DNA of 64,000 bases from a virus (lineage: Duplodnaviria > Caudoviricetes): positions 32,001 through 96,000 of the IMG/VR virus record IMGVR_UViG_2608642293_000001; one strand, written 5' to 3'. The notes under the pieces were generated by a model. That model saw nothing but the letters and a program-made list of their open reading frames with translations. It ran no database searches and was not told where the DNA came from. Numbering within the stretch: position 1 is the stretch's first letter; each line of letters starts with the position of its first letter. A program made the position numbers and the translations under genes. Positions 13,708 through 28,929 of this stretch are shown here, one piece after another.

Positions 13708-13742
13708 GCTATATGAAAATAACTAGTAGAAAGAGGTGTAAT

Positions 13743-13979
13743 ATGAATGAAGAATTAGTAAAAGACAAAATTGAAACTCACGAAAGAAGGCTTAATAATC
13801 ATGGAGATAGACTAGATAAGCTTGAGCAGGATGGAAGAGAGTTAAAAACAGAACTTAAGAACCTATGTGAAAATCTTAAAAACTTAACAAGTATGATGAA
13901 GTGGTTTATAACTGCAATTGGAGGAGCTTTAATAAGCTTCTTTTTTTATGCAGTTCAGACAGGAATATTTAATAAATAA
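13743..13979 (+). CDS. Hemolysin XhlA-family lysis protein
   Basis: Coiled coil plus C-terminal TM helix; start set at the ATG after RBS GAGGTG. Confidence 0.8.
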   Translation: MNEELVKDKIETHERRLNNHGDRLDKLEQDGRELKTELKNLCENLKNLTSMMKWFITAIGGALISFFFYAVQTGIFNK

Positions 13980-13994
13980 TTGGAGGTATGTAAA

Positions 13995-14435
13995 ATGATA
14001 AGAACAGCATTAAAGTTGATAATTAAGGTATTAGAAAGTAAGTTAATTAAAAGTGGACTAGAGGAAACTATACTAAAGAATAAAAATTATATTACTGTAG
14101 GTAAAGCTATTTGGAACATAGTAGACGAGAATTTTAGAATAAGCAAAACTGTAGAGGAAAAGGTATTATCTAAAGCAGATCAGTTTGATAAATTGCTATT
14201 AGCTAAGTTTCCAGAACTAAGCCAAGATGATGTGGCAGAAATAAGGCAAGCAATAGCAGGAGAAATAAATCAAGGGAAAGCAGCAGTAGTAGATAATTCT
14301 ACTTTACTTAAAGAGCTACAAAATGATAATGATAATTTAAAAGCTGAATTGGCAGCATTAACAGAACAATTTAATAAAGTCCAAGCATTAATGGTAAAGC
14401 CCGCTGATGCAAACATACAACAAGTTACAGCATAG
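13995..14435 (+). CDS. Putative holin
   Basis: Lies between XhlA and endolysin; RBS GGAGG. Confidence 0.55.
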   Translation: MIRTALKLIIKVLESKLIKSGLEETILKNKNYITVGKAIWNIVDENFRISKTVEEKVLSKADQFDKLLLAKFPELSQDDVAEIRQAIAGEINQGKAAVVDNSTLLKELQNDNDNLKAELAALTEQFNKVQALMVKPADANIQQVTA

Positions 14436-14494
14436 TTTTTAGAGTGACCTTTATAGGTTGCTCTTATTTTTTTATTATAGAAAGGATGACATAA

Positions 14495-15280
14495 ATGAAA
14501 GGTATAGATGTAAGTAATCATAATGGGAATATAAATTTTGTACAGGTGAAAGATTCAGGAATAGAAGCTGTTTACATTAAAGCTACAGAAGGGACAACTT
14601 TTAAAGATAGTTATCTAGATACTAATTATTCAAATGCACATTATGTAGGATTGAAGACAGGATTCTATCATTTTCTAGTTGGGACTAGTGCTCCGGAAAC
14701 TCAGGCCAATAGTTTTTATAATGCTATAAAGGATAAAGCAAATGATCTAATTCCAATGTTAGATGTAGAAAGTAATTTTGATGGACTAATGGATTATATT
14801 TTAAGATTCATTGCTAAATTTAAAGAGCTATCTAATATGCAAATTGGTATTTATACTTACACTAGCTTTATGGATAACTTAGATGACAGAATTGCAGATT
14901 ATCCATTATGGGAAGCAAATTATAACAATACTCCATGGAAATTAAATTCTAATTTCTTTACTAATAGAGTGGGGCATCAATATAGTGAAACAGGAACAGT
15001 AAGTGGAATAAATACTGATTGCGATATGAATGAGTTTAATGATGGAATATTAAATAAAACTACTGGATATGTAAGAACTACTTATCTTCCAAACGGGTAT
15101 AGAGGTGATGGTAGTTTTGTAGGAGTGGACATGGAATATGTACAGGAATATTTTAAGGATATTCGTATTTATGCAAATTCAAATGATAAAGGAATTTGGG
15201 TTGAAACTCAGAACTTACCTATGAGCAAATGCTTAGAATTAAAAGATATATTAGGAAGTTGGTTTTATGACATAAAGTAA
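14495..15280 (+). CDS. Endolysin, glycoside hydrolase family 25
   Basis: GIDVS.HNG, YIKATEG, GFYHF, LDVE and HQYS motifs. Confidence 0.93.
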   Translation: MKGIDVSNHNGNINFVQVKDSGIEAVYIKATEGTTFKDSYLDTNYSNAHYVGLKTGFYHFLVGTSAPETQANSFYNAIKDKANDLIPMLDVESNFDGLMDYILRFIAKFKELSNMQIGIYTYTSFMDNLDDRIADYPLWEANYNNTPWKLNSNFFTNRVGHQYSETGTVSGINTDCDMNEFNDGILNKTTGYVRTTYLPNGYRGDGSFVGVDMEYVQEYFKDIRIYANSNDKGIWVETQNLPMSKCLELKDILGSWFYDIK

Positions 15281-15323
15281 TATGATATAATATCTATTGC
15301 TAAATTGCATATACTCTGTTGTA

Positions 15324-17553: not shown

Positions 17554-17841
17554 GTAACATTATATTTTAATTATTAATACTATTTGAATAAATTGTACGT
17601 AAGACTATAATAAAAAGGCAGTAGCCTAAGCTACCACCAGTCCATTTTGCATAATTAGTATAACTTAAATTGATTATCCAGGTCAAGAAATATAAGGAAT
17701 AAGTAAATGAGGTATACTATCTTTGTTAACCTTCATAAAATTCCATAATTTATTGGATACTATTAACATGCATTTTAAAGGAATTAAGTAGAAAATGTAG
17801 AAATTAAAGTATGGAAAGATGAAATTTAAGGGGGATAAATA

Positions 17842-18672
17842 ATGACAATTTTACTATTTATGGTCTGCTTAGTTTGTCTTATAGCAGGACTTATTAAGCC
17901 AAGTAAATTAATTTTTTGGAAGGAACAAGAGCAGAGAACTAGAAAAAATGTACTAAAATATTTTGGATTAGCAACAATTATATCATTTGCTTTAGTGGGA
18001 ATATTTAATCCCAGTAACCATAGCAATACTAATGTTGCAAGTGCTAAAAAGGAAACAATAAAAAATACTGAGACACAAGAAAAACAAGAGACTAAAGAAG
18101 TCAAAGAAACGAAAAAGTCTGGATGGATACAGGAAAATGGAAGCTGGTATTTATATGGTGATGATGGAAGTCCAAAGACAGGATGGATTAAAGATAATAA
18201 TAAGTCGTATTATTTTAACTCAGCAGGAGTTTTACAAACTGGTTGGATAAAAGATCATGGTAAGGATTATTATCTAGATAAATCTGGAGTTATGCAGACC
18301 GGATGGAAAGAAAGTGATGGTAAATGGTATTACTTAAATTCTGATGGTTCAATGGCATCAAATGCAACTGTTGATGGATACTATTTATCTTCGAGTGGAG
18401 CAATGGAAGATAAGAGCTCAAGTATTTCAGATGGAAATAGTAGCTCAGTTTCAGCTAATAACTCAAATTCAAATAGTAGTACAGTTAAAAGTAGTAGTTC
18501 AGGTGGAAATCAATATGTAGATGCAAATGGGAATGGACTTATAAAGGGAAGTAAGAATCATATATATCATGTGCCTGGTAGTACATATTATAGCAGGACT
18601 AAGAATGTTGAACAATGGTTTAAGACAGTAGAAGAAGCAGAAGCTGCTGGTTACAGAGCTCCTGAAAAGTAG
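17842..18672 (+). CDS. Membrane-anchored cell-wall-binding (choline-binding repeat) protein
   Basis: Two N-terminal TM helices, TGW....GKWYYL repeats, C-terminal [13 protein letters not shown]...[10 protein letters not shown] domain. Confidence 0.8.
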
Positions 18673-18827
18673 AGTAATAATAAGAGAAAATAGCAACCAA
18701 TATAGAGATAGCAGGGAGAATGGGGATGTGCTATCTCTATTTTTGTGCATTAAATATTTTATATTTGACAAAGATACCAAATAATATACAATTATGGTAT
18801 AAAGATGTATGAGAGGGGATTTTAATA

Positions 18828-19481
18828 ATGAAGAAGAGACTTTTAGCTAGTTTACTAACAGGATTATTAATTGTAGGAGTTTTACCAGTAGGTGCAAGTG
18901 CAGAATGGAAACGTGATAATACTGGATGGTGGTATTCTGATTGGGATTCATGGTACATAGGTTGGAAAGAAATAGACGGAAAATGGTATTATTTTGATTA
19001 TAATGGATACATGGCACATGATACAACAATAGACGGATATCAACTAGGATCAGATGGTGCAAGAATAGAAAGGATATATCAAGCAGGAGAGAAATGGATA
19101 GTTGATGGTCAATGGGAATTCACTATTAATTCAGTTGAATCTACAAAATACAGAAATGAATTTTGGGATAAAAACCCTGAACAAGTTGTAATTATTAATT
19201 ACTCTTACAAAAATTTAGGATACTCTAACAGTTATATGGATTTATATTTTAGTAGCTTTACTGTTATGGATGAAAAGGGAGTTGTTGCAGAGCTTTATCC
19301 AGCAAATACTAAATATTCTCCAAAAGAAACTCCTATTGGAGCAACATGTGACAAGGCACAAGCTGGATATGGATTATCTAATAAGAGTTCCTCAATAACA
19401 ATACAAGTGGAAGAATACTCTCATGACTCAAGCGGTAATAGTCAAAAACAAAAGGCAACATTTAAAGTACCAGTAAAATAA
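18828..19481 (+). CDS. Secreted cell-wall-binding repeat protein with a DUF4352-like C-terminus
   Basis: Signal peptide ending ASA, GWKEIDGKWYYF repeat. Confidence 0.75.
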   Translation: MKKRLLASLLTGLLIVGVLPVGASAEWKRDNTGWWYSDWDSWYIGWKEIDGKWYYFDYNGYMAHDTTIDGYQLGSDGARIERIYQAGEKWIVDGQWEFTINSVESTKYRNEFWDKNPEQVVIINYSYKNLGYSNSYMDLYFSSFTVMDEKGVVAELYPANTKYSPKETPIGATCDKAQAGYGLSNKSSSITIQVEEYSHDSSGNSQKQKATFKVPVK

Positions 19482-19500
19482 ATTATGTAAGGGGGATTTA

Positions 19501-20136
19501 ATGATGAAGAAAAAACTTATAGCTAGTGTATTAGCGTTGTTTACAATAATTAGTTTAGTTGGGTGTGGCAGTACTCAAACGACTGCGAGTGCAGATACAA
19601 AAGAAACTGTTAAGCAAGAAGATACTAACCCAAATGAGAAGACAGTAGATGGCATTAAATTTACATTAGAAGGTGTAACTAGAGAACCTGTAAAAGGGGA
19701 TAGAACAAAAGATGATTTTGCACAAAATAATGGAGAGTATTTTGCTATTGGACCTAAAGTTGTAAAAGCATCAGATTATGAAAATATAGTTATCAACCTA
19801 AAAATTGAAAATACTACAGATAAAGCAATTGAAATTTCAGAATATGGTTGGACCGCAAAGATGAAAGATGGATATAAATTAAATGATAGTTTAAACGATA
19901 AAGATATTGATAAACAAATAGCTTCGCATAATGATATTGAGGGAGCAATTAAAATATTAGTAGAAAAAAAATTAGACGTAAAAGAATTTAACTTAAATTA
20001 TAATTTAATTGACTACACTAATTTTGATAAAATGTTAGGTGAGGCTGTTTCTGGGAAAAGTGAAGCTGAATGTAAAGCTAAATACCCAGAACTTTTCAAA
20101 GAAAATTATGTTACATTTAATATTCAGGTTAACTGA
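19501..20136 (+). CDS. Lipoprotein (DUF4352-like)
   Basis: Lipobox LVGC. Confidence 0.7.
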   Translation: MMKKKLIASVLALFTIISLVGCGSTQTTASADTKETVKQEDTNPNEKTVDGIKFTLEGVTREPVKGDRTKDDFAQNNGEYFAIGPKVVKASDYENIVINLKIENTTDKAIEISEYGWTAKMKDGYKLNDSLNDKDIDKQIASHNDIEGAIKILVEKKLDVKEFNLNYNLIDYTNFDKMLGEAVSGKSEAECKAKYPELFKENYVTFNIQVN

Positions 20137-20152: not shown

Positions 20153-20305
20153 TTAAATTTCTAGCTTTTTTGTTGAGTAAATTATTATTCTATCTATCAA
20201 TATACCATATAAAACCAAAGGATCTACATGTCCAGTAAAAGTTAAAATTGCAACTACAATAATTAGCGTTATATAGAAATGAGATTTGCTTGAAATAAAG
20301 TCCAT
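20153..20305 (-). CDS. Small hydrophobic membrane protein (50 aa)
   Basis: RBS GAGGTG; MDFISSKSHFYITLIIVVAILTFTGHVDPLVLYGILIDRIIIYSTKKLEI; below the ORF-track cutoff. Confidence 0.55.
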   Translation of the reverse strand: MDFISSKSHFYITLIIVVAILTFTGHVDPLVLYGILIDRIIIYSTKKLEI

Positions 20306-20375
20306 AATACACCTCACAATATAATAATATTTTAATTATTTCCAATACATGGTAAAATATACGTGAGGTGATTTT

Positions 20376-20549
20376 GTGACTAAAAAAGTAGGCAAGTATG
20401 AGTATGAAAAAGCAGAAACAACATTTAACATTAACGATGAACTTGATATGGAAATATATAAATTTTTGCTAGAGAATAGTAAAGTTATAGGTAAAAGCAA
20501 TTATATAAAACAACTTTTGTATGAAAAAATGCTTAAGAGTAAGGAATAA
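20376..20549 (+). CDS. Small ribbon-helix-helix-like DNA-binding protein (57 aa)
   Basis: RBS GAGGTG plus GTG; ...TFNINDELDMEIYKFL...KSNYIKQLLYEKM. Confidence 0.55.
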   Translation: MTKKVGKYEYEKAETTFNINDELDMEIYKFLLENSKVIGKSNYIKQLLYEKMLKSKE

Positions 20550-20580
20550 ACCTTACTCTTATTTTTTTTTATAATTTTTT

Positions 20581-20620
20581 AATAAATTTCAGAAACTTTA
20601 GGAAACTTTATTAAATTTAT
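20581..20620. repeat. Four 10-bp-phased AAA(C/T)TT repeats, parC-like
   Basis: aataaatttc agaaacttta ggaaacttta ttaaatttat directly upstream of parM. Confidence 0.45.
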
Positions 20621-20664
20621 TGCATAGAATAAACCATAAGATAAATGAAAAGGAGCTAGAATTT

Positions 20665-21555
20665 ATGAAAGATTATGAAATTTTAGGTATAGACATAGGA
20701 AATTGCACAACTAAGACTAGCACTGGAATAATATTCGATTCTAAAATTACAGATATTGAACCACTCGGAAAATCAGACATGCTATTCATGGATAAAAAAA
20801 CTTACTGGTTAGGAGAGGGCAATTATGATACCACCTATAAGAAAGTGGATAAACAGAGTTATTTAAAATTACTTTATGGAGCAATAGGGTTGAGCGAACA
20901 ATCTAGTAATAAAATCATCAACAATTGTATAGTTTTGGGACTGCCTTTAAGCCAGTTTAAGGAAGATAAAATGTCTTTAGTTAATATGGTTTTAGCTAAT
21001 AGAGAAAAAATTATAAGAATTAACAATACAGAAAAACAAATCATTATACAGGATGTTGAAGTGTTTCCAGAAGGCGTTGTAACGCTGCCAGATGATTATG
21101 AGGGAATAGTAATAGATATAGGCGGTAGGACAACAGATTGTGCTTTAGTGGTTAACGAGAGAGGTAGAAGAAGGGTTTTAAATCCTATAAGTCTGCCTAC
21201 CGGAACTATAAACTTATACAAAGATTTCATTAATAAGGTCAACAATAAATTTAGTTTAGATTTAGGGATGAATGATGCTGAACGGTTAATGTTGAATGGT
21301 TTATATTTGGATGGAAAGAGGACAAATATTAATTTTGCGGTTGAAGTTTATAAACAGTTTGTAGATAGTCTAATAAGCCGCTTACAGGTTGAGTATTCTT
21401 TGAGAACTAATCGCATTAGTCTTACAGGTGGGGGAGCATTATTGGTTTACGAGCAAATTAGAGATAGATTGGGTGATGGAGTAACCCTTCAGGATAGACC
21501 TACACTAGCAAATGCGAGGGCATATTATGAATTGGGGTGCAGCATATGGCAATAG
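20665..21555 (+). CDS. parM: ParM/StbA-family actin-like ATPase
   Basis: GIDIGNCTTK, VFPEG, IDIGGRTTD, LTGGGA and ANARAY actin-fold motifs. Confidence 0.88.
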   Translation: MKDYEILGIDIGNCTTKTSTGIIFDSKITDIEPLGKSDMLFMDKKTYWLGEGNYDTTYKKVDKQSYLKLLYGAIGLSEQSSNKIINNCIVLGLPLSQFKEDKMSLVNMVLANREKIIRINNTEKQIIIQDVEVFPEGVVTLPDDYEGIVIDIGGRTTDCALVVNERGRRRVLNPISLPTGTINLYKDFINKVNNKFSLDLGMNDAERLMLNGLYLDGKRTNINFAVEVYKQFVDSLISRLQVEYSLRTNRISLTGGGALLVYEQIRDRLGDGVTLQDRPTLANARAYYELGCSIWQ

Positions 21556-21737
21556 TAAAAGCAGTCAGCTTTAAGAATAAAGAGCAGGATTTATTGGATC
21601 ATGTAGGAAAAAGAGATTTCAGTTACTATGTTAAAGATCTTATAAGAAAAGATATGAACGAAAAACTATCAAGCAAGGTACCTGGCAGAAACGAAAATAT
21701 TACAATTAAAAAAAGAAATATTAATTTTGAATTTTAG
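21546..21737 (+). CDS. ParR-like ribbon-helix-helix adaptor
   Basis: Overlaps the parM end; VSFKNKEQDLLDHV...FSYYVKDLIRKDM. Confidence 0.65.
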   Translation: MAIVKAVSFKNKEQDLLDHVGKRDFSYYVKDLIRKDMNEKLSSKVPGRNENITIKKRNINFEF

Positions 21738-21747
21738 GAGGTTTATT

Positions 21748-21918
21748 ATGAAAAAATCAAATAAAAAAGAATCAAGTGAAAAGCCTGAAGTAAATATAAC
21801 TGATATTATAAAAGATTGGACTCAGAACTCTGAAATATTTAAGACTATGGTACCTAATATGAGTTTTAATGATTTGTTATTGTACTGCATAGAAAAGTTC
21901 ACCATTTTACCTAAATAA
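21748..21918 (+). CDS. Hypothetical protein
   Basis: RBS AGGAGG. Confidence 0.55.
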   Translation: MKKSNKKESSEKPEVNITDIIKDWTQNSEIFKTMVPNMSFNDLLLYCIEKFTILPK

Positions 21919-22085
21919 GCCACTTAAAAAGCCTAAATCTAAAATGATAGACTTAGGCTAAGGAGCTATCAGCTCTGCTTGCTGCGCTTCGCTTACGCTA
22001 ATAGCATATGCTACAAGTTTAAAAAAGTTTCCTGTTTATATATATCGGAGATCAATTTTAAGAATAAATTAAGATTTAGTTTAGT

Positions 22086-22154
22086 TTACAGAAAAGTTAT
22101 AACACCTACTGCAACAGTGTAAAATGCAATTGCTCCTAAAGTAAATGTGAACAT
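22086..22154 (-). CDS. 22-aa hydrophobic peptide
   Basis: RBS GAGGTG; MFTFTLGAIAFYTVAVGVITFL. Confidence 0.45.
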   Translation of the reverse strand: MFTFTLGAIAFYTVAVGVITFL

Positions 22155-22228
22155 TTTCTCACCTCACTTTTTATTAATATCTTTATTATTTACAATACTC
22201 AAATAATTATTCAATGGAGGTTTATGAA

Positions 22229-22651
22229 ATGAAAGAAATTACTATGAGTATTCATGATTTCATGGAAATTCAGAGAGGAAACCTTACATTAGAGGAATTA
22301 GAATTAGATTTAGATACTTTAGACAAAATAGCAGGAGAAATTCTCCAGAATCCTGAACTAAAAACGGCAGTTATTACATCAATAGCCTATATGAATATGC
22401 ATATGCGTGTTTATGCTGATGAAATGGACCAATTAAGAAGTGCTAAAGGTGAAATTGTAATAGTATTGCAAGTATGCATTGTTATTATATGTATTGTCAT
22501 GTGCTTGTTAGAAATCGCAAAATCCTTGATTGGAAATAGAAGTTCAGATGTAGGAAGTATTGTGATGAAATATCTTGCTGCTACAGTTGGAACTTGTTTA
22601 GTACCGAGAGTATTTACATGGATAGCACATTTATGCGGAATTAATGTATAA
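22229..22651 (+). CDS. Membrane protein with a pilin-like (VirB2/TrbC-like) two-helix C-terminus
   Basis: VYA|D processing-like site followed by two hydrophobic helices. Confidence 0.5.
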   Translation: MKEITMSIHDFMEIQRGNLTLEELELDLDTLDKIAGEILQNPELKTAVITSIAYMNMHMRVYADEMDQLRSAKGEIVIVLQVCIVIICIVMCLLEIAKSLIGNRSSDVGSIVMKYLAATVGTCLVPRVFTWIAHLCGINV

Positions 22652-22662
22652 GGAGTTTAATT

Positions 22663-22929
22663 ATGAATGAAAGTATATCTAATGCAATTCAAAACGGATT
22701 TGATAAAGTTTCTGATAGTATAAAGGATAAAATTTCTGGCTTTATGATCTATATTTTAAAATCTATAGGAAATTTTGCTTTAGAGAGTTCGGATATAGTT
22801 TGTCCGATAATTTGTTTAATAGCATTAGCTTTTTATATAGGCGGTAATAGAAAGGCTGGTAAATATGTTTCAGGATCATTTGTATTATATTTTATACTTC
22901 AAGCACTTAGAGGTTTTATAAAAGCATGA
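22663..22929 (+). CDS. Small two-TM membrane protein
   Basis: Hydrophobic helices flanking GNRKAGK; ATGA-coupled to the ATPase. Confidence 0.6.
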   Translation: MNESISNAIQNGFDKVSDSIKDKISGFMIYILKSIGNFALESSDIVCPIICLIALAFYIGGNRKAGKYVSGSFVLYFILQALRGFIKA

Positions 22930-25271
22930 AAAGCCTAAAATTATCTAACTATTTTGAATTAGTGAAACCAACCTACCGTTATATTAAAATTACAAGCCAT
23001 AAATCGATTCGCAATTACAATTCTGATAACTTAAGCAAATTTATTGCCCTTACCTACAAAAGCCTTGACAGAAGAATAAGAAAAGAACAAAAGAAGATAT
23101 TCTTCGAAACAACCTTTAAAATTTCCTACATTATAGATATTCAAAATAATGATTGTAGTTTTTATTTCTTGGTTCCTGAAGTGTATTTAAATATGTTATT
23201 TGAGAAAATAACAGAGATATGGAATAAAGCTACTGTTGAAGTTCTAGAGGATCCAATTAAACCTATCTCGGACAATGCTGAAATGTACCAATTATCATAC
23301 AAAAAAGAAGACGCTCTAAGTTTAAAGGTAGATAAAAAATCAAACGAACCTTTAAATTCTATTTTATCAGTTATGGATATTTTAAAGGATGATGATAGAG
23401 TAACAATAATTTATAATTTCTTACCTATAAGCCAGTTTTCATGGTTAGAAAGATATTTAGGGACTATAGAAAAATTAAAAGAAAATAAAATGGTTGATAA
23501 AAAGCAGACATCAATAGAATATTTGATTAAAACTACTGTACTATTTGTTTCAAAAATGATAACAGATTTTCTAAATGTTGTTGATGATTTCACAGGAGGA
23601 AACCCAGAACAGGAGAAAAAAAGCCTTTATGATGTTGTTATAGGGTATATGCAGAACAGAAAAGAATTGTCTCCAGCTACTAAGAAAAAGAAGGAAAGTA
23701 CTGTCCTAGATACTCAAATTGTTGTATTTTCAGAAAGCAAAGATAATATACGAAAAACTAATAATGCTTTGAGTACATGCCAAGCCTATAGGGTTTTGGA
23801 TGAAGACAACGAACTTATGTATAAAAAAGTAAAAAAGAAGATAAGAAAAAAATTCAAGGATATAGAACAAACAGATTATAGAGTAGATTACAATACTATG
23901 AGTGTAGAAGAAGTAGGGAGCACTTGTTTACAAATTCCAGCAAGAAGCCTTTTATATCAATTTAAATTGAAATTTGTTAATGTAGAAGAAGTTCAAATAC
24001 CCGAGAAACTAAGGCAAGGTTACATTACATTAGGAACCAATAAATTCAAAGGGAAAACCTACGAAACTTACTTTGAAGATCATAAAGATATAGGTTCATT
24101 AGGTTTAGTGTTGTTGGCAAGGCAAGGCGGCGGGAAAACAACTTACTTATGCCATTATTCTAAAGATTGCTTATCTAGAAAAGAAAGTATAGTACACATA
24201 GATTTTATTAGAAACAACGAAGCTAGTAAAACAATTGAAAAAGTAGTGCCTAAAGAAGATCTAATAATATTAGATTTAAGCACAGAGGAAGGATTACAAG
24301 CTCTAGCATATAATGAGATTGAATTTACAGAAAATATATCTTTATTTGAAAGGCAGGCTCTAGCTAATAAAAAGGCTGAAATGACAATACAATTAGTAGA
24401 TAGCATAAATGATAATGGAGAACCTTTAAGCCCTAAAATGAGTCGTTATTTAAGTGCTGCAGCTAATGTTATATATATTAAGGAAAATACTACCTTGAAA
24501 GATGTTATAAGATGCCTACAGGATTATAAGTTTAGAGAAGAATCAATTAATACTTGTATTCCAGATGTATTAAAAGAGGAATTTGAAGAAGAAATACAAG
24601 CTTTAGAGGAATTAGATGAATACACAAAAGCTACAAAAGATAACCCAAGCCAAAAATGTGGAACTAAGGATAGTAAAATAGAAGGGATTTTGGACCGTAT
24701 AAGTTTACTAATGAGAGATTTTTATTTAAAGAAGATGTTTAAGAAGAATCCGAAGAATAATATAAATTTCGCTAAAGCCACAGAAGAAGGGAAAGTTATA
24801 TTAATTCGTATGCAACAAAGTAAGTTTAAGGACTATGCAAAGAATGTTATTACTACTTTCTTCATTACTAAAACATGGCTGGCATGTGAGCTTAGAGGGG
24901 ACTTATCCGAGACACAACGAAGAACTCATATAATTATAGATGAAATAAGTCAAACTAAAACAGCGGAAAGATTTTTAGAAAGTAAATTAACTCAAGGTAG
25001 AAAGTTTGGATTTAAACCAGTTCTAGCGCTCCAATATTTAGATCAGCTAGATAAGAAGACAATATATTCACTTAAAGGTGCTGGATGCAGTTTTATGCTG
25101 CTTAAAGGTGCTATAAAAGAAGACTTTGAGTATTTTAAAGATGAAATAGATAACTTTGAATATGAAGATTTAAAGGAAATGAGCAAGACATATAAATATC
25201 CATCGTTTAATATTATCCAGTATTCAGATGGAGTTACAAGTTTTATAACAGAATTGCCTAAACCAGTTTAA
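22926..25271 (+). CDS. VirB4/TraG/HerA-FtsK superfamily P-loop ATPase
   Basis: Walker A ARQGGGKTT, Walker B IIIDEISQ, GRKFG...LALQYLDQL. Confidence 0.75.
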   Translation: MKSLKLSNYFELVKPTYRYIKITSHKSIRNYNSDNLSKFIALTYKSLDRRIRKEQKKIFFETTFKISYIIDIQNNDCSFYFLVPEVYLNMLFEKITEIWNKATVEVLEDPIKPISDNAEMYQLSYKKEDALSLKVDKKSNEPLNSILSVMDILKDDDRVTIIYNFLPISQFSWLERYLGTIEKLKENKMVDKKQTSIEYLIKTTVLFVSKMITDFLNVVDDFTGGNPEQEKKSLYDVVIGYMQNRKELSPATKKKKESTVLDTQIVVFSESKDNIRKTNNALSTCQAYRVLDEDNELMYKKVKKKIRKKFKDIEQTDYRVDYNTMSVEEVGSTCLQIPARSLLYQFKLKFVNVEEVQIPEKLRQGYITLGTNKFKGKTYETYFEDHKDIGSLGLVLLARQGGGKTTYLCHYSKDCLSRKESIVHIDFIRNNEASKTIEKVVPKEDLIILDLSTEEGLQALAYNEIEFTENISLFERQALANKKAEMTIQLVDSINDNGEPLSPKMSRYLSAAANVIYIKENTTLKDVIRCLQDYKFREESINTCIPDVLKEEFEEEIQALEELDEYTKATKDNPSQKCGTKDSKIEGILDRISLLMRDFYLKKMFKKNPKNNINFAKATEEGKVILIRMQQSKFKDYAKNVITTFFITKTWLACELRGDLSETQRRTHIIIDEISQTKTAERFLESKLTQGRKFGFKPVLALQYLDQLDKKTIYSLKGAGCSFMLLKGAIKEDFEYFKDEIDNFEYEDLKEMSKTYKYPSFNIIQYSDGVTSFITELPKPV

Positions 25272-25283
25272 AGACCAAGATAT

Positions 25284-25523
25284 TTAATTATCCTGGTCTT
25301 CCTCATTATCGAAATTATAATGTTGTTTGAAGTAGTGTAGGATTCTGTAAGAGCTTATTCCAAGTTCTTTAGATAACCTGAAAATCACGTTTACAGTTGG
25401 GTTACAAGCGCTAGGGTGCTTTTCCATTTTAGATAGATAAGATTTACTAACCCCAATTTTAAGAGCCAATTCAGTTAAAGAAAGTTCTTTTTCAGTTCGC
25501 TTTTCCTCGAGCAGGCAAACCAC
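25284..25523 (-). CDS. XRE-family HTH regulator
   Basis: LSLTELALKIGVSKSYLSKME. Confidence 0.75.
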   Translation of the reverse strand: MVCLLEEKRTEKELSLTELALKIGVSKSYLSKMEKHPSACNPTVNVIFRLSKELGISSYRILHYFKQHYNFDNEEDQDN

Positions 25524-26018
25524 CTCGGCTAAACAGATTTTTCATTTGTAATTGTAGTATATTTATTATTCTACAATTATTATAATATTCCTCTATTTTC
25601 TACAAAATTTTCAATAATTATTTTAAATATATTAGTTAGGTTTAAAATTATTGTAAATTTAAGACAAAAATAATCAATTATAATTATTGCTTTAAATACA
25701 TTTAAATTCGGACTATGTATTTTAAATGTATATCACAATAAAATGTAAAATATTTACATATTAGACCTAATATTCCATAAAAAATCAAGAAAATGCAATA
25801 TTGAAAGAAGGGACAAAACTCGAATTGAGTCTAACGGTTACTGTCAGTGAACGATTTTAGTTGTATAATTAGATTATAGGAATTGATCAATGTCTTATAG
25901 AAAAAAAGAGAGGGGTTATGAGAAAAAGTTAAAAAATTAACGAATAAAATTAATTGGATAGAAAAGCTTTGAATTGTAATTTTGGAAAACACTTAATATA
26001 TATGTATATCAGAAAAGC

Positions 26019-26246
26019 TTATTTAGGGTAAGGTTTTCTGATGCTAGTCCTACCAAGCAGAAAATCTGTACTAACTTCATAAAAATCAGCAAATAATTCA
26101 ATCATTTGAATAGATGGCTCATATGTACCATTTTCATAATGAGCGTATGCTGATCTAGATATATTAAGTTTTTTAGAGAGCTCGACCTGAGTGAGTTCGG
26201 CTTCGTTTCTAAGATATGTTAATCTTTTAGATAGCAATTTTATCAC
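26019..26246 (-). CDS. XRE-family HTH regulator
   Basis: LTQVELSKKLNISRSAYAHYENG...VSTDFLLGRT. Confidence 0.85.
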   Translation of the reverse strand: MIKLLSKRLTYLRNEAELTQVELSKKLNISRSAYAHYENGTYEPSIQMIELFADFYEVSTDFLLGRTSIRKPYPK

Positions 26247-26428
26247 CTCAACATAATTTTAGCAACAGGACTAGTAAATTGTGCCAAAATGTTAGCAAAA
26301 CGAACAAAATTACAGAAAAAGTAAAGAAGCAAGCAAACGTGTGTTTGCATATATCGGTATTTATGATATAATAAATTTAATGATTGAAATACAAAAAGCT
26401 ATAATATTAGAGACAGGAGTGTTATGTT

Positions 26429-26635
26429 ATGGAAAGAAAAACTTATGAAAATGATGAAGATTATATTTTGGAAGTTCTAGAAGAAGAGGAAGACAACTTA
26501 ACAGAGTTTATGAGGAATAATCTTCCGGATAATTTGAAATTTCAGTTTTCTAAATTTATAGCAGTACGTAATGCGATAGAAAAAATTAAAGAAAAAAACA
26601 TATTTAATAAAGAACTGTACAATAAAACTGTTTGA
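26429..26635 (+). CDS. Hypothetical protein
   Basis: RBS AGGAG; upstream TTGCAT-N16-TATAAT overlapped by the palindrome GCAAACGTGTGTTTGC (26333-26348). Confidence 0.6.
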   Translation: MERKTYENDEDYILEVLEEEEDNLTEFMRNNLPDNLKFQFSKFIAVRNAIEKIKEKNIFNKELYNKTV

Positions 26636-27119: not shown

Positions 27120-27274
27120 GGATTTCCTGTTGCATCTGTATAAAATACTGCTTTTCTATGATCAGCATAATGCCCAGCAAGTCCTGCTTTTTTTATCTCT
27201 TCTATAGTTGCATTTTCCATAAGTTGATATACCATTGTAGCAATTATTTCTACATGGGCCATTTCTTCTGTTCC
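27116..27274 (-). pseudogene. cotJC: Internal fragment of spore coat protein CotJC (Mn-catalase family), isolated between two prophages
   Basis: Translates GTEEMAHVEIIATMVYQLMENATIEEIKKAGLAGHYADHRKAVFYTDATGNP*, matching the GTEE.AH.E...GNPW core of CotJC; similarity stops abruptly at both ends. Confidence 0.85.
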
Positions 27275-28929
27275 GTTGACTTAAATGCAGAATTTCCGAA
27301 ATCTTTTCTTTCAAGACTAGAACCGATTGGGACTACTGTTAAAGAATTATTATCACTATCCCAAACTACGAATTTAACAACACTAGATATAAGTCTTTTT
27401 TTATCTTCAAAAGTTTGGGTGAAATCATAGAATTTTTTAAAATTATCATATATATCAAGTATTTCAGAAATATCTTTCTTTATATCAAGGATAGTATCAT
27501 TTTCTGTTTTTAATTTAATAATATTATCTTCCAATTCTTTGTTTTCTTTACGCAGTTGTCTTATTTCATTCTCATAAGTATCAATCATTTCTTCTTCGTT
27601 CGATTTGGCGACCCGCCTTGATAAATTACTAATCATTTCTTTATTTTCAGATATTTTTTTAGTTAACTTAATTATTAAATCATTGTTATTAGTTTTTACA
27701 GCAGCTCTTTGCTTAAAATCTAGATAGGTGTTCATAATCTCGTCTTCAGTCATACTCTTAATTCTATTAACAACATAATCTTCAGCATCATATGCATTTA
27801 GTGAAGTGTTATCACATCTATTTCCGGCTTTATTCTTCAAATTGCAGGTGTAGTACCTGTATATACTTTCAGTACCATTAATAAGTTTATTAAATTGCTT
27901 TCTAGGAGCCATACTAGAACCACAATGCCCACAAATGACCAATCCACTTAAAAGTGCATTTATACTAGTATATTGCCTATTAGATGCTTTTAATTTAATT
28001 TCTTCACAAATATCTTGACATTTAATCCAATCCTGGCTGCATATTATTCCAGGATGGTCACCTATAGATATTAACCAATCTTCTGTAGGCGCAAAGCTGC
28101 CATTTTCTTTTCTTCGATTATAGGGCATTATGCCATTGACACCATTGGCATATTCTCTTCTATAAATTTCACAACCTTCATCTTTAAAGAAATCAAGAAT
28201 TAAATTATCAGCTATAACATAAACTGGATTATTTATCATTTGCTTAACGAGCTCTCTTGAAAAAACGCGTCCTTTACGGCTGTAAATACCTTGATTTTCT
28301 AATGTCAAACTAACTTTTTGAAAACTTTTATATTTTTTAAATAACTCAAATACTAATTTCACAGTTTTAATGTCGTTTTCTTCAATTTGGAGTATATGCT
28401 TTTTTCTACTTTTTCCTCTTAAATCATTATTTTCAACTTGAATAGATATATAGCCTAAAGGAGCAGGTCCACCTAGCCATCTACCAGTTTTACTTAATTC
28501 TCTAAGATTGTCTTGTATACGTTCCGCTATGGTTTCTCTTTCAAGTTGTGCAAAGGTAGCAGATATATTCATCATAGCTCTTCCCATTGCAGTAGAAGTA
28601 TCAAATTGCTCTTTAATACTTACGAAGGAGACATCAAATTTATCTAAAACATTAAGAGTATTAGTGAAGTCTGCAACATTTCTGGAAATTCTATCAAGTC
28701 GATAACAGATAAGATGGGTAAAATATTTATTTTTAATATCTCTCATAAGTTTTTGAAATTGAGGCCTGTTTGTATTGCCTCCAGAAAAGCCTTCATCCTC
28801 ATATACTTCATATTCTGCGATATTTAGAACATTTTGGGCATATTTAATACACATATTAATCTGATTTTCTATAGATTCTCCCTCTTCTGTAAATTTACTT
28901 TTACGAGAATAAATTGCAATTTTAGACAT
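27250..28929 (-). CDS. Large serine recombinase (integrase)
   Basis: IAIYSRKS catalytic motif, YRLDRISR, GGPAPLGY, zinc ribbon LLSGLVICGHCG...YYTC, coiled coil. Confidence 0.95.
   Translation of the reverse strand: MSKIAIYSRKSKFTEEGESIENQINMCIKYAQNVLNIAEYEVYEDEGFSGGNTNRPQFQKLMRDIKNKYFTHLICYRLDRISRNVADFTNTLNVLDKFDVSFVSIKEQFDTSTAMGRAMMNISATFAQLERETIAERIQDNLRELSKTGRWLGGPAPLGYISIQVENNDLRGKSRKKHILQIEENDIKTVKLVFELFKKYKSFQKVSLTLENQGIYSRKGRVFSRELVKQMINNPVYVIADNLILDFFKDEGCEIYRREYANGVNGIMPYNRRKENGSFAPTEDWLISIGDHPGIICSQDWIKCQDICEEIKLKASNRQYTSINALLSGLVICGHCGSSMAPRKQFNKLINGTESIYRYYTCNLKNKAGNRCDNTSLNAYDAEDYVVNRIKSMTEDEIMNTYLDFKQRAAVKTNNNDLIIKLTKKISENKEMISNLSRRVAKSNEEEMIDTYENEIRQLRKENKELEDNIIKLKTENDTILDIKKDISEILDIYDNFKKFYDFTQTFEDKKRLISSVVKFVVWDSDNNSLTVVPIGSSLERKDFGNSAFKSTEQKKWPM

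What the first reader, a model, noticed from the sequence alone, without database searches (positions are those of the whole stretch)
22086..25271. Prophage-borne minimal translocation module: two pilin-like membrane proteins plus a VirB4/HerA-like ATPase, with no relaxase
Seen: a three-gene operon (145 aa with a processing-like site and two TM helices; 88 aa with two TM helices; 781 aa ATPase with Walker A/B and RKFG motif) and a divergent 22-aa hydrophobic peptide. It sits next to parMR, and no relaxase, VirB6 or coupling protein is visible in the window. Inference: too small for conjugation. It could be a DNA or protein pump, for example moving the excised phage circle across the sporulation septum, a filament-extrusion system or a defence system.
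Basis: partly seen in the sequence, partly recalled or inferred. Interest (0 to 1): 0.7.

Follow-up and report, generated by a model that had tools for sequence, protein, structure and literature searches.

The report
Phage-borne mini type-IV-secretion-like module
A Clostridium prophage carries a small, self-contained gene set related to the core of bacterial conjugation machines, the same set seen in many phages of spore-forming bacteria, and nobody yet knows what it does.

Summary
Window 22229-25271 (+) is a tight operon of a 140-aa prepilin-like membrane protein, an 88-aa hairpin membrane protein and a 781-aa ATPase. A conserved divergent 22-aa hydrophobic peptide gene and a ParM-like gene lie upstream.

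The cassette is not a decayed conjugation remnant. It is the Clostridium version of SPP1 genes 31/31.1/31.2/32 (phrog_5156), whose authors called them a possible membrane translocon, non-essential and of unknown function.

New here:
- The window's "ParR" is a homologue of SPP1 gp31 and belongs to the module.
- An actin-like ParM gene lies within 5 kb in 13 of 23 loci.
- Large Bacillus phages add a MobC-type Replic_Relax protein directly downstream, in 4 of 23 loci.
- In three phage-database searches (94, 104 and 146 records) all hosts but one belong to genera that I recall as endospore formers. A portal control hit mostly Streptococcus, Staphylococcus and Enterococcus phages.

Best reading: a T4SS-derived, membrane-docked module that moves DNA, possibly into forespores. 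The identity is solid. The function is inferred.

The parts
20620..21555 (+). ParM-like actin-like protein (ALP). It is linked to the cassette here and in 12 other loci.
   Evidence: Pfam ALP_N 2.4e-13 and MreB-like_C 1.2e-6. phrog_691 partition protein 2.2e-42. An ALP lies within 5 kb of the ATPase in 13 of 23 loci.
21537..21737 (+). 66-aa small DNA-binding-type protein that looks ribbon-helix-helix. It is a homologue of SPP1 gp31.
   Evidence: BLASTP against SPP1 gp31: E 1e-7, 44% identity over 39 residues. A shared motif is seen upstream of the cassette in 12 of 12 loci aligned. The ribbon-helix-helix label is inferred from that pattern and from Arc/Mnt/CopG annotations in two phage records. 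There was no Pfam hit and no PDB hit.
21727..21918 (+). 63-aa ORF of unknown function. It occupies a variable position between the gp31-like gene and the cassette.
   Evidence: ORF list. No Pfam, PHROG, NCBIfam or PADLOC hit.
21930..21959 (-). Terminator-like hairpin downstream of the 22-aa peptide gene.
   Evidence: 12-pair stem followed by a T run on the minus strand. That scan found 8 terminator-like sites against 1.7 expected from shuffles.
22086..22154 (-). Divergent 22-aa hydrophobic peptide gene with a GAGGTG ribosome-binding site.
   Evidence: Sequence. Identical in L009 and L014. A 22-aa variant is present in L010 and another in L011, L015 and L016. A 24-aa one is present in phiCp-D.
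22229..22651 (+). Prepilin-like membrane protein: 140 aa, or 145 aa if it starts at 22214. It has a leader, a V-Y-A|D-E site, and a roughly 73-aa hairpin with a basic loop. It is the positional equivalent of SPP1 gp31.1.
   Evidence: It has no Pfam hit itself. TrbC is hit by the equivalents in pCLK (1.8e-6, above the curated cutoff) and TP-84 (5.8e-5).
22663..22929 (+). 88-aa hairpin membrane protein with an invariant basic loop. It is translationally coupled to the ATPase, sits in the VirB3 position, and is the positional equivalent of SPP1 gp31.2.
   Evidence: No family hit.
22926..25271 (+). 781-aa two-domain VirB4-family ATPase (phrog_5156). It is a homologue of SPP1 gp32.
25271..25300 (.). 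Inverted repeat at the end of the operon. It may be a terminator shared with the convergent HTH gene at 25284-25523 (-).
   Evidence: Seen by eye in the sequence printed. The scan did not report it.

Best explanation
What it is. This is the Clostridium version of a module found in many phages and plasmid-prophages of endospore-forming Firmicutes. SPP1 genes 31, 31.1, 31.2 and 32 are the described example.

The module has four conserved genes:
- a small gp31-like DNA-binding protein that looks ribbon-helix-helix;
- a prepilin-like protein with a leader, an Ala-x-Ala-type site and a two-helix hairpin;
- a second small hairpin membrane protein, translationally coupled to the ATPase;
- a soluble ATPase with both the N-terminal and the C-terminal domain of VirB4, the signature motor of type IV secretion systems.

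It derives from type IV secretion but stands alone. It has no VirB6, no VirB8 and no coupling protein. In this window it also has no relaxase and no wall hydrolase.

How it most likely works (inferred):
- The ATPase forms a ring at the inner face of the membrane, held there by the 88-aa protein.
- It uses ATP to act on the pilin-like subunits, which build a small conduit through the membrane.
- The cargo is phage DNA, marked by the gp31-like protein and brought to the membrane or the cell pole by filaments of the neighbouring ParM-like protein.
- Because the family occurs almost only in phages of spore formers, lytic and temperate alike, the membrane crossed may be the sporulation septum, so that phage genomes end up inside spores.

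My confidence by step: about 0.9 that it is a member of the SPP1-type VirB4-like module and not a remnant; about 0.45 that DNA is the cargo; about 0.2-0.25 for the forespore step.
For: SHOWN
- Family: phrog_5156 at 5e-102 over the full length. BLASTP against SPP1 gp32 gives E 2e-27 over 826 columns.
- Synteny: the same arrangement of small membrane-protein gene(s) directly upstream of the ATPase is seen in phiCp-D, TPDSL_ph2, PBC1, TP-84, 000TH010, SPP1, four Clostridium plasmids and a B. thuringiensis plasmid-prophage. pCLK and TP-84 have one small membrane protein, not two.
- Translational coupling: the same 4-nt overlap of the small gene with the ATPase gene is found in the window, SPP1, PBC1, pCLK and the C. 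tetani plasmid.
- Whole-protein fold: the full-length model has pLDDT 89.5. The best Foldseek matches are full-length R388 TrwK/VirB4 (E 3e-13).
- Catalytic residues are invariant in 49 homologues.
- Prepilin architecture and the near-invariant Ala. TrbC Pfam hits in positional equivalents.
- gp31 homology.
- ParM-like gene within 5 kb in 13 of 23 loci. These include the strictly lytic SPO1 and JL and Geobacillus phage D6E. D6E has the same order as the window: lysis, DUF4352 protein, partition protein, cassette, integrase.
- Replic_Relax directly downstream in SPO1, JL, PBC2 and 0305phi8-36. That family is the MobC relaxase superfamily (PMC5357655, passages).
- Host range: 94, 104 and 146 phage records. 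All are from Bacillus, Geobacillus, Lysinibacillus, Alicyclobacillus, Brevibacillus, Clostridium or Terrisporobacter phages or 'Deep-sea thermophilic phage' records, plus one Microcystis record. That these genera form endospores is recalled, not from a call.
- Control: a portal protein from the same window hit 540 records led by Streptococcus 155, Staphylococcus 147 and Enterococcus 86.

FROM PAPERS
- SPP1 gp32 is non-essential and was proposed to build a translocon with gp31.1/31.2 (PMC6316719, passages).
- SPO1 genomes are trapped in spores ('virospores'), and the authors point to its ParM gene 27.9 (PMC12991052, passages).

RECALLED, NOT TESTED
- The virB2-virB3-virB4 gene order in Agrobacterium.
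- VirB4-dependent extraction of VirB2 from the membrane.
- A ribbon-helix-helix protein (TrwA) that stimulates the TrwB ATPase.
Against: - No experiment bears on function. In SPP1 the genes are dispensable for lytic growth.
- P0001 and P0002 have no significant match to TrbC, T4SS_pilin, VirB3 or any PDB chain.
- The two small proteins are not detectably related to each other. P0002 is not detectably related to SPP1 gp31.2. The second small gene is therefore equated by position and shape only.
- The leader of P0001 is only weakly hydrophobic, and its N-terminal motif is conserved. That is unusual for a cleaved signal, so it may be an uncleaved three-helix protein.
- In canonical systems VirB4 is not the DNA pump, and VirB6 is the platform for pilus assembly. 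Both VirB6 and a coupling protein are missing here.
- By sequence the C-terminal domain hits the coupling-protein model TrwB_AAD_bind, not a VirB4 model. The weak genome hits of the family profile are TraG/VirD4-type proteins.
- The spore link is a correlation over host names, with no phylogenetic correction. No Clostridioides phage appears in the organism tallies, although one search shows such phages are in the collection. One Microcystis record is an exception.
- ParM is absent or unannotated in 10 of 23 loci. Replic_Relax is absent from 19 of 23, including the window.
Confidence: 0.45

Rival explanations
1. Exclusion or competition device. The membrane-docked ATPase and the hairpin proteins alter or block the route by which foreign DNA enters the cell, or expel that DNA. 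The foreign DNA could be a superinfecting phage or a plasmid. The module would protect the infected or lysogenic cell for the resident phage.
For: - In temperate phages it lies in the post-lysis 'moron' position next to the lysogeny genes.
- In SPP1 it is early and non-essential.
- It has its own transcription-unit boundaries.
Against: - No PADLOC hit for any of the three proteins or their neighbours.
- It does not explain the VirB4-type N-terminal domain, the recurrent ParM and Replic_Relax partners, or the restriction to phages of spore formers.
Confidence: 0.18
2. Mobilisation module. The ATPase acts as a coupling protein whose membrane anchor is supplied in trans by the small proteins. Together with a MobC-type nickase where one is present, it hands phage or plasmid-prophage DNA to the mating channel of a co-resident conjugative element.
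For: - TrwB_AAD_bind is the only conjugation-related Pfam model hit: 16 of 49 family members.
- The family profile's weak hits in Clostridia genomes are TraG/VirD4-type proteins: 3 of the 4 ORFs examined.
- An ATPase gene directly followed by Replic_Relax in SPO1, JL, PBC2 and 0305phi8-36 mirrors the coupling-protein-plus-MobC pairing described for streptococcal IME class 8 (PMC5357655).
- 8 of 50 plasmid records are typed mobilizable.
Against: - The N-terminal domain is VirB4-type, which coupling proteins lack.
- The module is common in strictly lytic phages (SPP1, SPO1, PBC1, TP-84), where conjugative escape makes little sense.
- There is no nickase in the window or in 19 of 23 loci.
- 42 of 50 plasmid records are typed non-mobilizable.
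Confidence: 0.12
3. Filament or protein export. The VirB4-like motor extracts the processed pilin-like subunit and builds a short surface filament, or it exports a protein. DNA is not the cargo.
For: - Prepilin-like architecture and the conserved Ala at the predicted cleavage site.
- TrbC and T4SS_pilin hits in equivalents.
- A signal peptidase I gene lies 3 kb upstream of the cassette on the C. beijerinckii plasmid.
- An M23 wall hydrolase is present in the PBC2 module.
- Recalled: VirB4 is the ATPase tied to pilus biogenesis.
Against: - There is no VirB6-like platform and no tip protein.
- The conserved DNA-binding partner, ParM and Replic_Relax all point to DNA.
- Cleavage of the leader has not been shown.
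Confidence: 0.13
4. Decayed remnant of a conjugative operon that was captured by the prophage and is now without function.
For: Only the resemblance to type IV secretion parts and the absence of the other parts.
Against: - All three frames are intact and conserved from 94% down to about 22% identity.
- The catalytic residues are invariant.
- The same compact gene order recurs in more than 20 loci from unrelated phages.
- 0 of 50 plasmid records are typed conjugative.
- No conjugation genes were found nearby in any locus read.
Confidence: 0.02

Closest known systems
Bacillus phage SPP1 genes 31, 31.1, 31.2 and 32 (Godinho et al. 2018, PMC6316719; passages read)
   Same: - The same four-gene order.
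- ATPase homologous over its full length (E 2e-27).
- gp31 homologue (E 1e-7).
- The first small protein shares an N-terminal motif and the leader-plus-hairpin design.
- The same ATGA overlap before the ATPase gene.
   Different: - 23% ATPase identity.
- SPP1 is lytic and has no ParM next to the module.
- The window adds a divergent 22-aa peptide gene and a 63-aa ORF.
- The second small proteins are not detectably similar in sequence.
VirB2-VirB3-VirB4 core of type IV secretion systems (R388 TrwL/TrwM/TrwK; PDB 7o42, 8rtd)
   Same: - Both ATPase domains superpose on VirB4.
- The gene order is small pilin-like, then small membrane protein, then ATPase. The Agrobacterium order used for comparison is recalled.
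- The pilin-like protein has a leader, a hairpin and a basic loop.
   Different: - No VirB1 or VirB5-B11, and no coupling protein or relaxase in the window.
- No hit to curated VirB4, VirB3 or TrbC sequence models for the window's own proteins.
- The extra-membrane part of the 88-aa protein is N-terminal. As I recall, it is C-terminal in VirB3.
Extended module of large Bacillus phages (SPO1 gp27.9-gp27.3, JL gp155-gp149, PBC2 gp231-gp239, 0305phi8-36 ORF207-ORF200)
   Same: A ParM-like gene upstream, small membrane-protein genes, then the homologous ATPase.
   Different: - These phages add a Replic_Relax (MobC-type) gene that overlaps the 3' end of the ATPase gene.
- PBC2 also adds an M23 peptidase.
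- The window has neither.
Coupling protein plus MobC relaxase pairs (streptococcal IME class 8, PMC5357655; CloDF13 MobB/MobC, recalled)
   Same: - It hits the Pfam model TrwB_AAD_bind.
- Relatives of the cassette pair it with Replic_Relax.
   Different: - Coupling proteins carry their own N-terminal membrane helices and lack the VirB4-type N-terminal domain.
- There is no relaxase in the window.
SpoIIIE/FtsK DNA translocases, including the phage-borne homologues in Bastille-like phages (PMC4528723)
   Same: A P-loop motor of the same superfamily. A possible link to moving DNA during sporulation.
   Different: - The window's ATPase has no membrane segments.
- It is a different protein family from the phage SpoIIIE homologues in print.

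Membership tests
SPP1 gp31-gp32 type phage module (phrog_5156) | ATPase homologous over its full length | tested here: met
   phrog_5156 5e-102, residues 5-763. BLASTP against SPP1 gp32 E 2e-27.
SPP1 gp31-gp32 type phage module (phrog_5156) | Small membrane-protein gene(s) directly upstream of the ATPase gene, the last one overlapping it | tested here: met
   The same holds in 11 further annotated loci.
SPP1 gp31-gp32 type phage module (phrog_5156) | gp31-like small DNA-binding protein upstream | tested here: met
   E 1e-7 against gp31. The motif is present in 12 of 12 loci.
VirB4 ATPase of type IV secretion | C-terminal RecA-like domain of the VirB4/VirD4 clade with Walker A and Walker B | tested here: met
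   [not shown]
VirB4 ATPase of type IV secretion | VirB4-type N-terminal domain | tested here: met
   [not shown]
VirB4 ATPase of type IV secretion | Match to curated VirB4 sequence models | tested here: not met
   Pfam gave only TrwB_AAD_bind (2.4e-5) and AAA_14. NCBIfam gave nothing. None of the 25 family rows shown (of 26) for the 49 members is a VirB4 model.
VirB4 ATPase of type IV secretion | Encoded with other channel parts (VirB6, VirB8, hydrolase) and a coupling protein | tested here: not met
   None was found in the ORFs scanned from the 109-kb record or in the annotated neighbourhoods read.
VirB4 ATPase of type IV secretion | Hexameric membrane-associated ATPase bound to VirB3 | not testable with these tools
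VirB2/TrbC pilin | Leader with a signal-peptidase-type site, then a roughly 70-aa subunit of two hydrophobic helices joined by a short basic loop | tested here: inconclusive
   The architecture is present and the Ala at the site is conserved. The window's leader is only weakly hydrophobic, and cleavage is unproven.
VirB2/TrbC pilin | Match to the Pfam models TrbC or T4SS_pilin | tested here: not met
   No hit for P0001 even at E 10. Positional equivalents do hit: pCLK 1.8e-6 (28.5 bits against a cutoff of 27.9) and TP-84 5.8e-5. The Atlas neighbours Maff2 and TrbC scored 0.88, which is a lead only.
VirB3 | Small inner-membrane protein encoded next to virB4 that binds its N-terminal domain | tested here: inconclusive
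   Position and size fit. There is no sequence match. Binding could not be tested.
ParMRC (type II) partition system | Actin-like ATPase followed by a small DNA-binding adaptor | tested here: met
   ALP_N and phrog_691 hits. The 66-aa gene overlaps the end of parM.
ParMRC (type II) partition system | Centromere repeats (parC) | not tested
   I made no repeat search around 20300-20620.
FtsK/SpoIIIE translocase | N-terminal membrane domain, FtsK motor domain and gamma domain | tested here: not met
   [not shown]
Known anti-phage defence systems (PADLOC) | Match to a defence protein model | tested here: not met
   0 families hit for 8 proteins of the region.
Type I toxin-antitoxin (for the 22-aa peptide) | Small hydrophobic peptide with an overlapping antisense RNA | tested here: inconclusive
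   The peptide is real and conserved and has its own terminator. No RNA data cover it.

The most novel reading that the evidence does not exclude
Phages of endospore-forming bacteria carry a stripped-down machine derived from type IV secretion. Its purpose would be to put the phage genome into the developing spore. The proposed parts and roles are:
- a ParM-like filament that delivers DNA to the pole;
- a gp31-like adaptor that marks the DNA;
- in large phages, a MobC-type nickase that opens it;
- a VirB4-like motor with pilin-like subunits that carries it across the sporulation septum.
This would be the missing mechanism behind 'virospores' of lytic phages. It would also be the first type-IV-secretion-like system working inside one cell, between mother cell and forespore.
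Probability: 0.2. Interest if true: 0.9.

Novelty: new variant of a known kind. Interest (0 to 1): 0.64.

Why it matters
- Type IV secretion motors are known from conjugation, effector delivery and DNA uptake. A self-contained three- or four-gene derivative that lives in phage genomes is a different use of the same parts.
- The module is spread across unrelated phage lineages, including SPP1-like, SPO1-like, Basilisk-like, Tsamsa/PBC2-like and jumbo phages, and Clostridium prophages and plasmid-prophages. It is kept intact and is confined almost entirely to hosts from genera I recall as endospore formers. That suggests a selected function tied to host biology.
- The model phages SPP1 and SPO1 carry it in a laboratory host with good genetics. 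The question of how phage genomes get into spores could therefore be tested directly through this module.
- For annotation, current labels of these genes are misleading. Examples seen are 'lipid A export ATP-binding/permease MsbA', 'conjugal transfer protein' and 'TraD'.

Tried and rejected
- A single-sequence search of the ATPase against PDB sequences gave only chance-level hits. The profile search gave weak P-loop hits only. Structure prediction was needed.
- The search for related loci would not take alignments A1 or A2 because no stretch was conserved enough. With the single protein it returned only 3 viral and 3 genome loci.
- The genome search does not draw relatives for a virus record. 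Through a handle, 10 of 399 scored Clostridia genomes matched at E 1e-8 or better. No taxon names are given, so the spore-former question could not be tested that way.
Binding of the small proteins to the ATPase is therefore untested.
- Profile comparisons found nothing usable: P0001 family against P0002 family (probability 5.9%); P0002 family against SPP1 gp31.2; P0001 family against SPP1 gp31.1, where only the N-terminal motif matched (probability 48%).
- Profile searches of the pilin-like set and the gp31-like set against PDB sequences found nothing below E 0.3.
- NCBIfam gave no hit for the three cassette proteins. PADLOC gave none.
- Expression: no RNA holder is listed for the stretch. 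Three RNA runs with the same species label had zero or near-zero depth (at most 0.09) over 20242-26581, so that strain lacks the cassette. There is no evidence on expression either way.
- Promoter-like sites were not more frequent than in shuffles (33 found against 36.9 expected). I name no promoter.
- Cluster look-up of 10 distant family members gave a source name for only 1 of them, an Anaerosolibacter sp..
- The 511-aa ORF after the lysin is unrelated to the 506-aa ORF after the second prophage's lysin.
- The FtsK/SpoIIIE homologues reported in Bastille-like and Geobacillus phages are a different family.
- Print search: four full-text searches found no paper other than PMC6316719 that discusses this module. 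Subscription-only papers are not covered.

Full report
**What is in the window**

The window is part of a 108,873-base virus record that is cut at gene boundaries. The record holds two prophages side by side.

- The first prophage starts with a serine recombinase and a LexA-like repressor at the record's start. It runs through tail genes to an XhlA holin and a GH25 lysin at window 13713-15280.
- After the lysin comes an accessory arm on the + strand: a 511-aa ORF, two proteins with cell-wall-binding repeats, a DUF4352-like lipoprotein, a ParM-like gene, and then the reported cassette.
- The second prophage starts at the serine recombinase at 27250-28929 (-). That enzyme is 38% identical to the first recombinase. 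This prophage has its own copy of the holin-lysin pair, 87% identical in DNA.
- A relative with a 98% identical ATPase, on a contig of an uncultured Clostridium, shares window 20559-25299. Right after the ATPase gene it continues into host-like genes. The cassette is therefore the last block at the right end of the first prophage.

**Check of the observation**

- The three ORFs are as reported. They are packed as an operon, with an 11-nt gap and then an ATGA overlap.
- The first gene probably starts 15 nt later, at 22229.
- The ATPase has GGGKT at 401-405, DE at 672-673 and RKFG at 692-695. It has no hydrophobic segment.
- Each small protein has one strongly hydrophobic helix and a second, weaker one, separated by a short basic loop.
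- The divergent 22-aa peptide gene at 22086-22154 (-) has a ribosome-binding site and a terminator-like hairpin 130 nt downstream. An ORF of the same length is kept in six other Clostridium loci, down to 57% ATPase identity. I take it to be a real gene.
- No relaxase, VirB6, VirB8, coupling-protein or CwlT-type family was hit in the 83 ORFs of the record that I scanned. Record positions 17.7-32 kb and most very small ORFs were not scanned.

**What the ATPase is**

Sequence models say little. Pfam gives a weak TrwB_AAD_bind hit (2.4e-5), NCBIfam gives nothing, and PHROGs gives a full-length match to phrog_5156, a family of unknown function.

The family is moderately large. It has 604 proteins at E 0.001 or better among 90% clusters and 798 clusters at 50% identity. 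In 49 diverse members the Walker residues and four others (K255, E329, R537, R591) never vary.

An AlphaFold2 model built on that alignment has mean pLDDT 89.5.
- Foldseek ranks full-length R388 TrwK/VirB4 chains first (E 3e-13).
- The C-terminal domain therefore places the protein in the VirB4/VirD4 clade but cannot choose within it.

The protein therefore has the two-domain build of VirB4. It is so far diverged that no curated VirB4 sequence model sees it.

**What the small proteins are**

Neither P0001 nor P0002 hits any family. Their close homologues number only 20 and 16. I therefore compared the positional equivalents in 12 other cassettes.

- The first small protein always has the same plan: an N-terminal stretch with a shared motif, a hydrophobic run, a small-x-Ala site, and then about 70 residues that form two hydrophobic helices joined by a short basic loop.
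- In SPP1 gp31.1, TP-84 gp47, TPDSL_ph2 and the pCLK protein, the hydrophobic run looks like a clear signal sequence.
- The Ala at the site is nearly invariant in 16 sequences.
- This is the plan of VirB2/TrbC pilins (recalled). The pCLK and TP-84 proteins hit Pfam TrbC at 1.8e-6 (above the curated cutoff) and 5.8e-5, and 0305phi8-36 ORF204 hits T4SS_pilin weakly.
- The window's own protein does not hit these models, and its leader is only weakly hydrophobic. I therefore call it prepilin-like, not a proven pilin.

The 88-aa protein has a 35-55-residue N-terminal part and a hairpin with an invariant basic loop. Its gene overlaps the ATPase start here and in SPP1, PBC1, pCLK and the C. tetani plasmid. 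It sits where virB3 sits, but I could show neither sequence similarity nor binding.

**It is a known but uncharacterised phage module**

tblastn against 50,697 phage records found the ATPase in 94 of them, and in 50 plasmid records.
- The same order of small membrane-protein gene(s) and then the ATPase is found in Clostridium phage phiCp-D, Terrisporobacter phage TPDSL_ph2, Bacillus phages PBC1 and 000TH010, Geobacillus phage TP-84 and SPP1.
- It is also found on plasmids of four Clostridium species and on a B. thuringiensis plasmid-prophage.
- In SPP1 these are genes 31.1, 31.2 and 32.
- The 2018 re-annotation of SPP1 states that gp32 is non-essential and that its C-terminus resembles TrwB, VirB4 and FtsK. 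It suggests that gp32 might build a trans-membrane translocon with gp31.1/31.2, and says the function remains to be established (PMC6316719; passages read).
- P0003 aligns with gp32 over 826 columns (E 2e-27).
- Four full-text searches found no later work on the module.

None of the 50 plasmid records is typed conjugative: 42 are non-mobilizable and 8 mobilizable. No neighbourhood that I read contains a conjugation channel.

In 399 scored Clostridia genomes, 10 matched at E 1e-8 or better. Four of these were full-length matches. The weak partial matches are TraG/VirD4-type proteins: 3 of the 4 ORFs examined.

**New points about the module**

1. The 66-aa gene that overlaps the end of parM, read as ParR, is a homologue of SPP1 gp31 (E 1e-7). 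I aligned 14 candidate small proteins from 12 loci. One per locus shares the same motif. The other two, second candidates from two plasmids, are ordinary HTH proteins. The module therefore has a fourth conserved gene, a small DNA-binding protein that looks ribbon-helix-helix. That label is inferred, with no Pfam or PDB hit.

2. A ParM-like gene lies within 5 kb of the ATPase in 13 of 23 loci.
   - By Pfam: the window, L014, L010, L015, L016, SPO1 and PBC2.
   - By the record's annotation: phiCp-D, the B. thuringiensis plasmid, JL, 0305phi8-36, Basilisk and D6E.
   - In the other 10 loci none is annotated, which is weaker evidence of absence.
   - The link holds in strictly lytic SPO1-like phages. 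Geobacillus phage D6E has the same order as the window: lysis genes, DUF4352 protein, partition protein, cassette, integrase.

3. In SPO1, JL, PBC2 and 0305phi8-36 the gene that overlaps the 3' end of the ATPase gene is a Replic_Relax protein. The E-values are 2.9e-12, 3.3e-18, 7.6e-11 and 6.2e-5, and the last is just under Pfam's cutoff. That family is the MobC relaxase superfamily, which pairs with a VirD4 coupling protein in streptococcal mobilizable elements (PMC5357655; passages). PBC2 also has an M23 peptidase in the module. The window has neither gene.

4. Host range. The three queries were P0003, PBC1 gp39 and SPO1 gp27.4, and they hit 94, 104 and 146 phage records.
   - By the first word of the organism name these are Bacillus, Geobacillus, Lysinibacillus, Alicyclobacillus, Brevibacillus, Clostridium, Terrisporobacter and 'Deep-sea thermophilic phage' records, plus one Microcystis record in the last two searches. 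That these genera are endospore formers is recalled.
   - No phage of Staphylococcus, Listeria, Streptococcus, Lactococcus or Enterococcus was hit, although relatives of SPO1 infect several of these (recalled).
   - As a control for sampling, the portal protein of the second prophage hit 540 records. These were led by Streptococcus 155, Staphylococcus 147, Enterococcus 86, Clostridium 36, Lactococcus 31, Bacillus 26 and Listeria 16.
   - This is a correlation over host names without phylogenetic correction. No Clostridioides phage appears in the organism tallies of the three searches.

**How it most likely works**

Shown:
- A VirB4-family motor with intact catalytic residues.
- Obligate pairing with one or two small hairpin membrane proteins.
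- A conserved small DNA-binding partner.
- Frequent ParM and occasional MobC-type partners.
- Spread across many unrelated phages of spore formers.

Inferred:
- The soluble motor docks on the membrane through the small protein whose gene overlaps it. It acts on the pilin-like subunits to form a minimal conduit.
- The partners point to DNA as cargo: a DNA-binding adaptor, a DNA-pushing filament and, in some phages, a nickase.
- Lytic and temperate phages of spore formers share one need that phages of other Firmicutes do not have, which is to get a genome copy into the forespore.
- A 2026 study shows SPO1 genomes trapped in spores and points to its ParM gene 27.9 (PMC12991052; passages). That gene heads the operon that contains the VirB4-like gene 27.4.

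I therefore rank 'DNA conduit, possibly across the sporulation septum' first. I put about 0.45 on DNA as cargo and 0.2-0.25 on the forespore step.

Against this:
- VirB4 is not the DNA pump in canonical systems (recalled).
- VirB6 and a coupling protein are missing.
- SPP1 does not need the genes for lytic growth.
- There are no expression or localisation data. The RNA runs I could lay come from a strain without the cassette.

**Rivals**

- Exclusion or competition at the membrane (0.18). This fits the moron position and the dispensability. It gets no support from PADLOC and does not explain the partners.
- Mobilisation through a helper conjugative element (0.12). This fits the coupling-protein-like sequence signal and the MobC neighbour. 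It does not fit lytic phages or the VirB4 N-terminal domain.
- A filament or protein exporter (0.13). This fits the prepilin and the M23 peptidase. It leaves the DNA-related partners unexplained.
- A decayed remnant (0.02). This is close to excluded.

**Verdict**

It did not know that the module is already described for SPP1, and it read one module gene as ParR.

The thing is a new variant of a known kind: a phage-borne derivative of the type IV secretion core. Its function is open. It can be tested in laboratory B. subtilis with SPP1 and SPO1.

Noticed in passing
window 13735-15281 and record 101618-103164 (L008:6618-8164): Two tandem prophages share an 87% identical holin-endolysin block of 1.55 kb. 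Their serine recombinases are only 38% identical.
   Followed up: partly
L006:11517-12194 (record positions, upstream of the window): The first prophage encodes a protein that matches Pfam Tad5, the Type I Thoeris inhibitor, at 5.9e-45. A Dcm-type methylase and an NA37 nucleoid-associated protein lie next to it.
   Followed up: no
window 22086-22154 (-): A 22-aa, purely hydrophobic peptide gene is conserved in length and orientation upstream of the Clostridium cassettes. It could be a fifth module part or a type I toxin. No RNA data are available.
   Followed up: partly
window 18340-19607: RNA reads from a related strain, mostly 90-95% identical, pile up at 60-290x on the genes for the cell-wall-binding-repeat proteins. 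The rest of the arm has almost none. A homologue of these conversion-type genes is highly expressed in that strain.
   Followed up: no
L031:5780-6295 and 17593-17781; L032:5852-6040: A signal peptidase I gene lies 3 kb upstream of the cassette on the C. beijerinckii plasmid. Spo0E-family sporulation phosphatase genes lie within 7 kb of the cassette on that plasmid and on the B. thuringiensis plasmid-prophage.
   Followed up: no
L028:5697-6521 (SPO1 gene 27.3): SPO1, a strictly lytic phage, encodes a MobC-type Replic_Relax protein whose gene overlaps the end of the VirB4-like gene. A ParM gene heads the same operon.
   Followed up: partly
phage collection: One Microcystis phage record is the only hit outside phages of the listed Firmicutes genera. 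I did not look at it.
   Followed up: no
window 19501-20136 and L038:1019-1597: A DUF4352-type lipoprotein gene sits between the lysis genes and parM, both in the window (weak Pfam hit 0.0022; phrog_12151 1.7e-47) and in Geobacillus phage D6E.
   Followed up: no
L014:10581-10793: In the 98%-identical relative, a 70-aa ORF consisting only of a LexA DNA-binding domain lies about 0.7 kb past the ATPase gene, with a 178-aa ORF between them. It may be a host gene split by the prophage's insertion.
   Followed up: no
annotations seen: Public records label members of this ATPase family as 'lipid A export ATP-binding/permease MsbA', 'TraD coupling protein' or 'putative conjugal transfer protein'. In phiCp-D the gene is split into two annotated CDS.
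   Followed up: no
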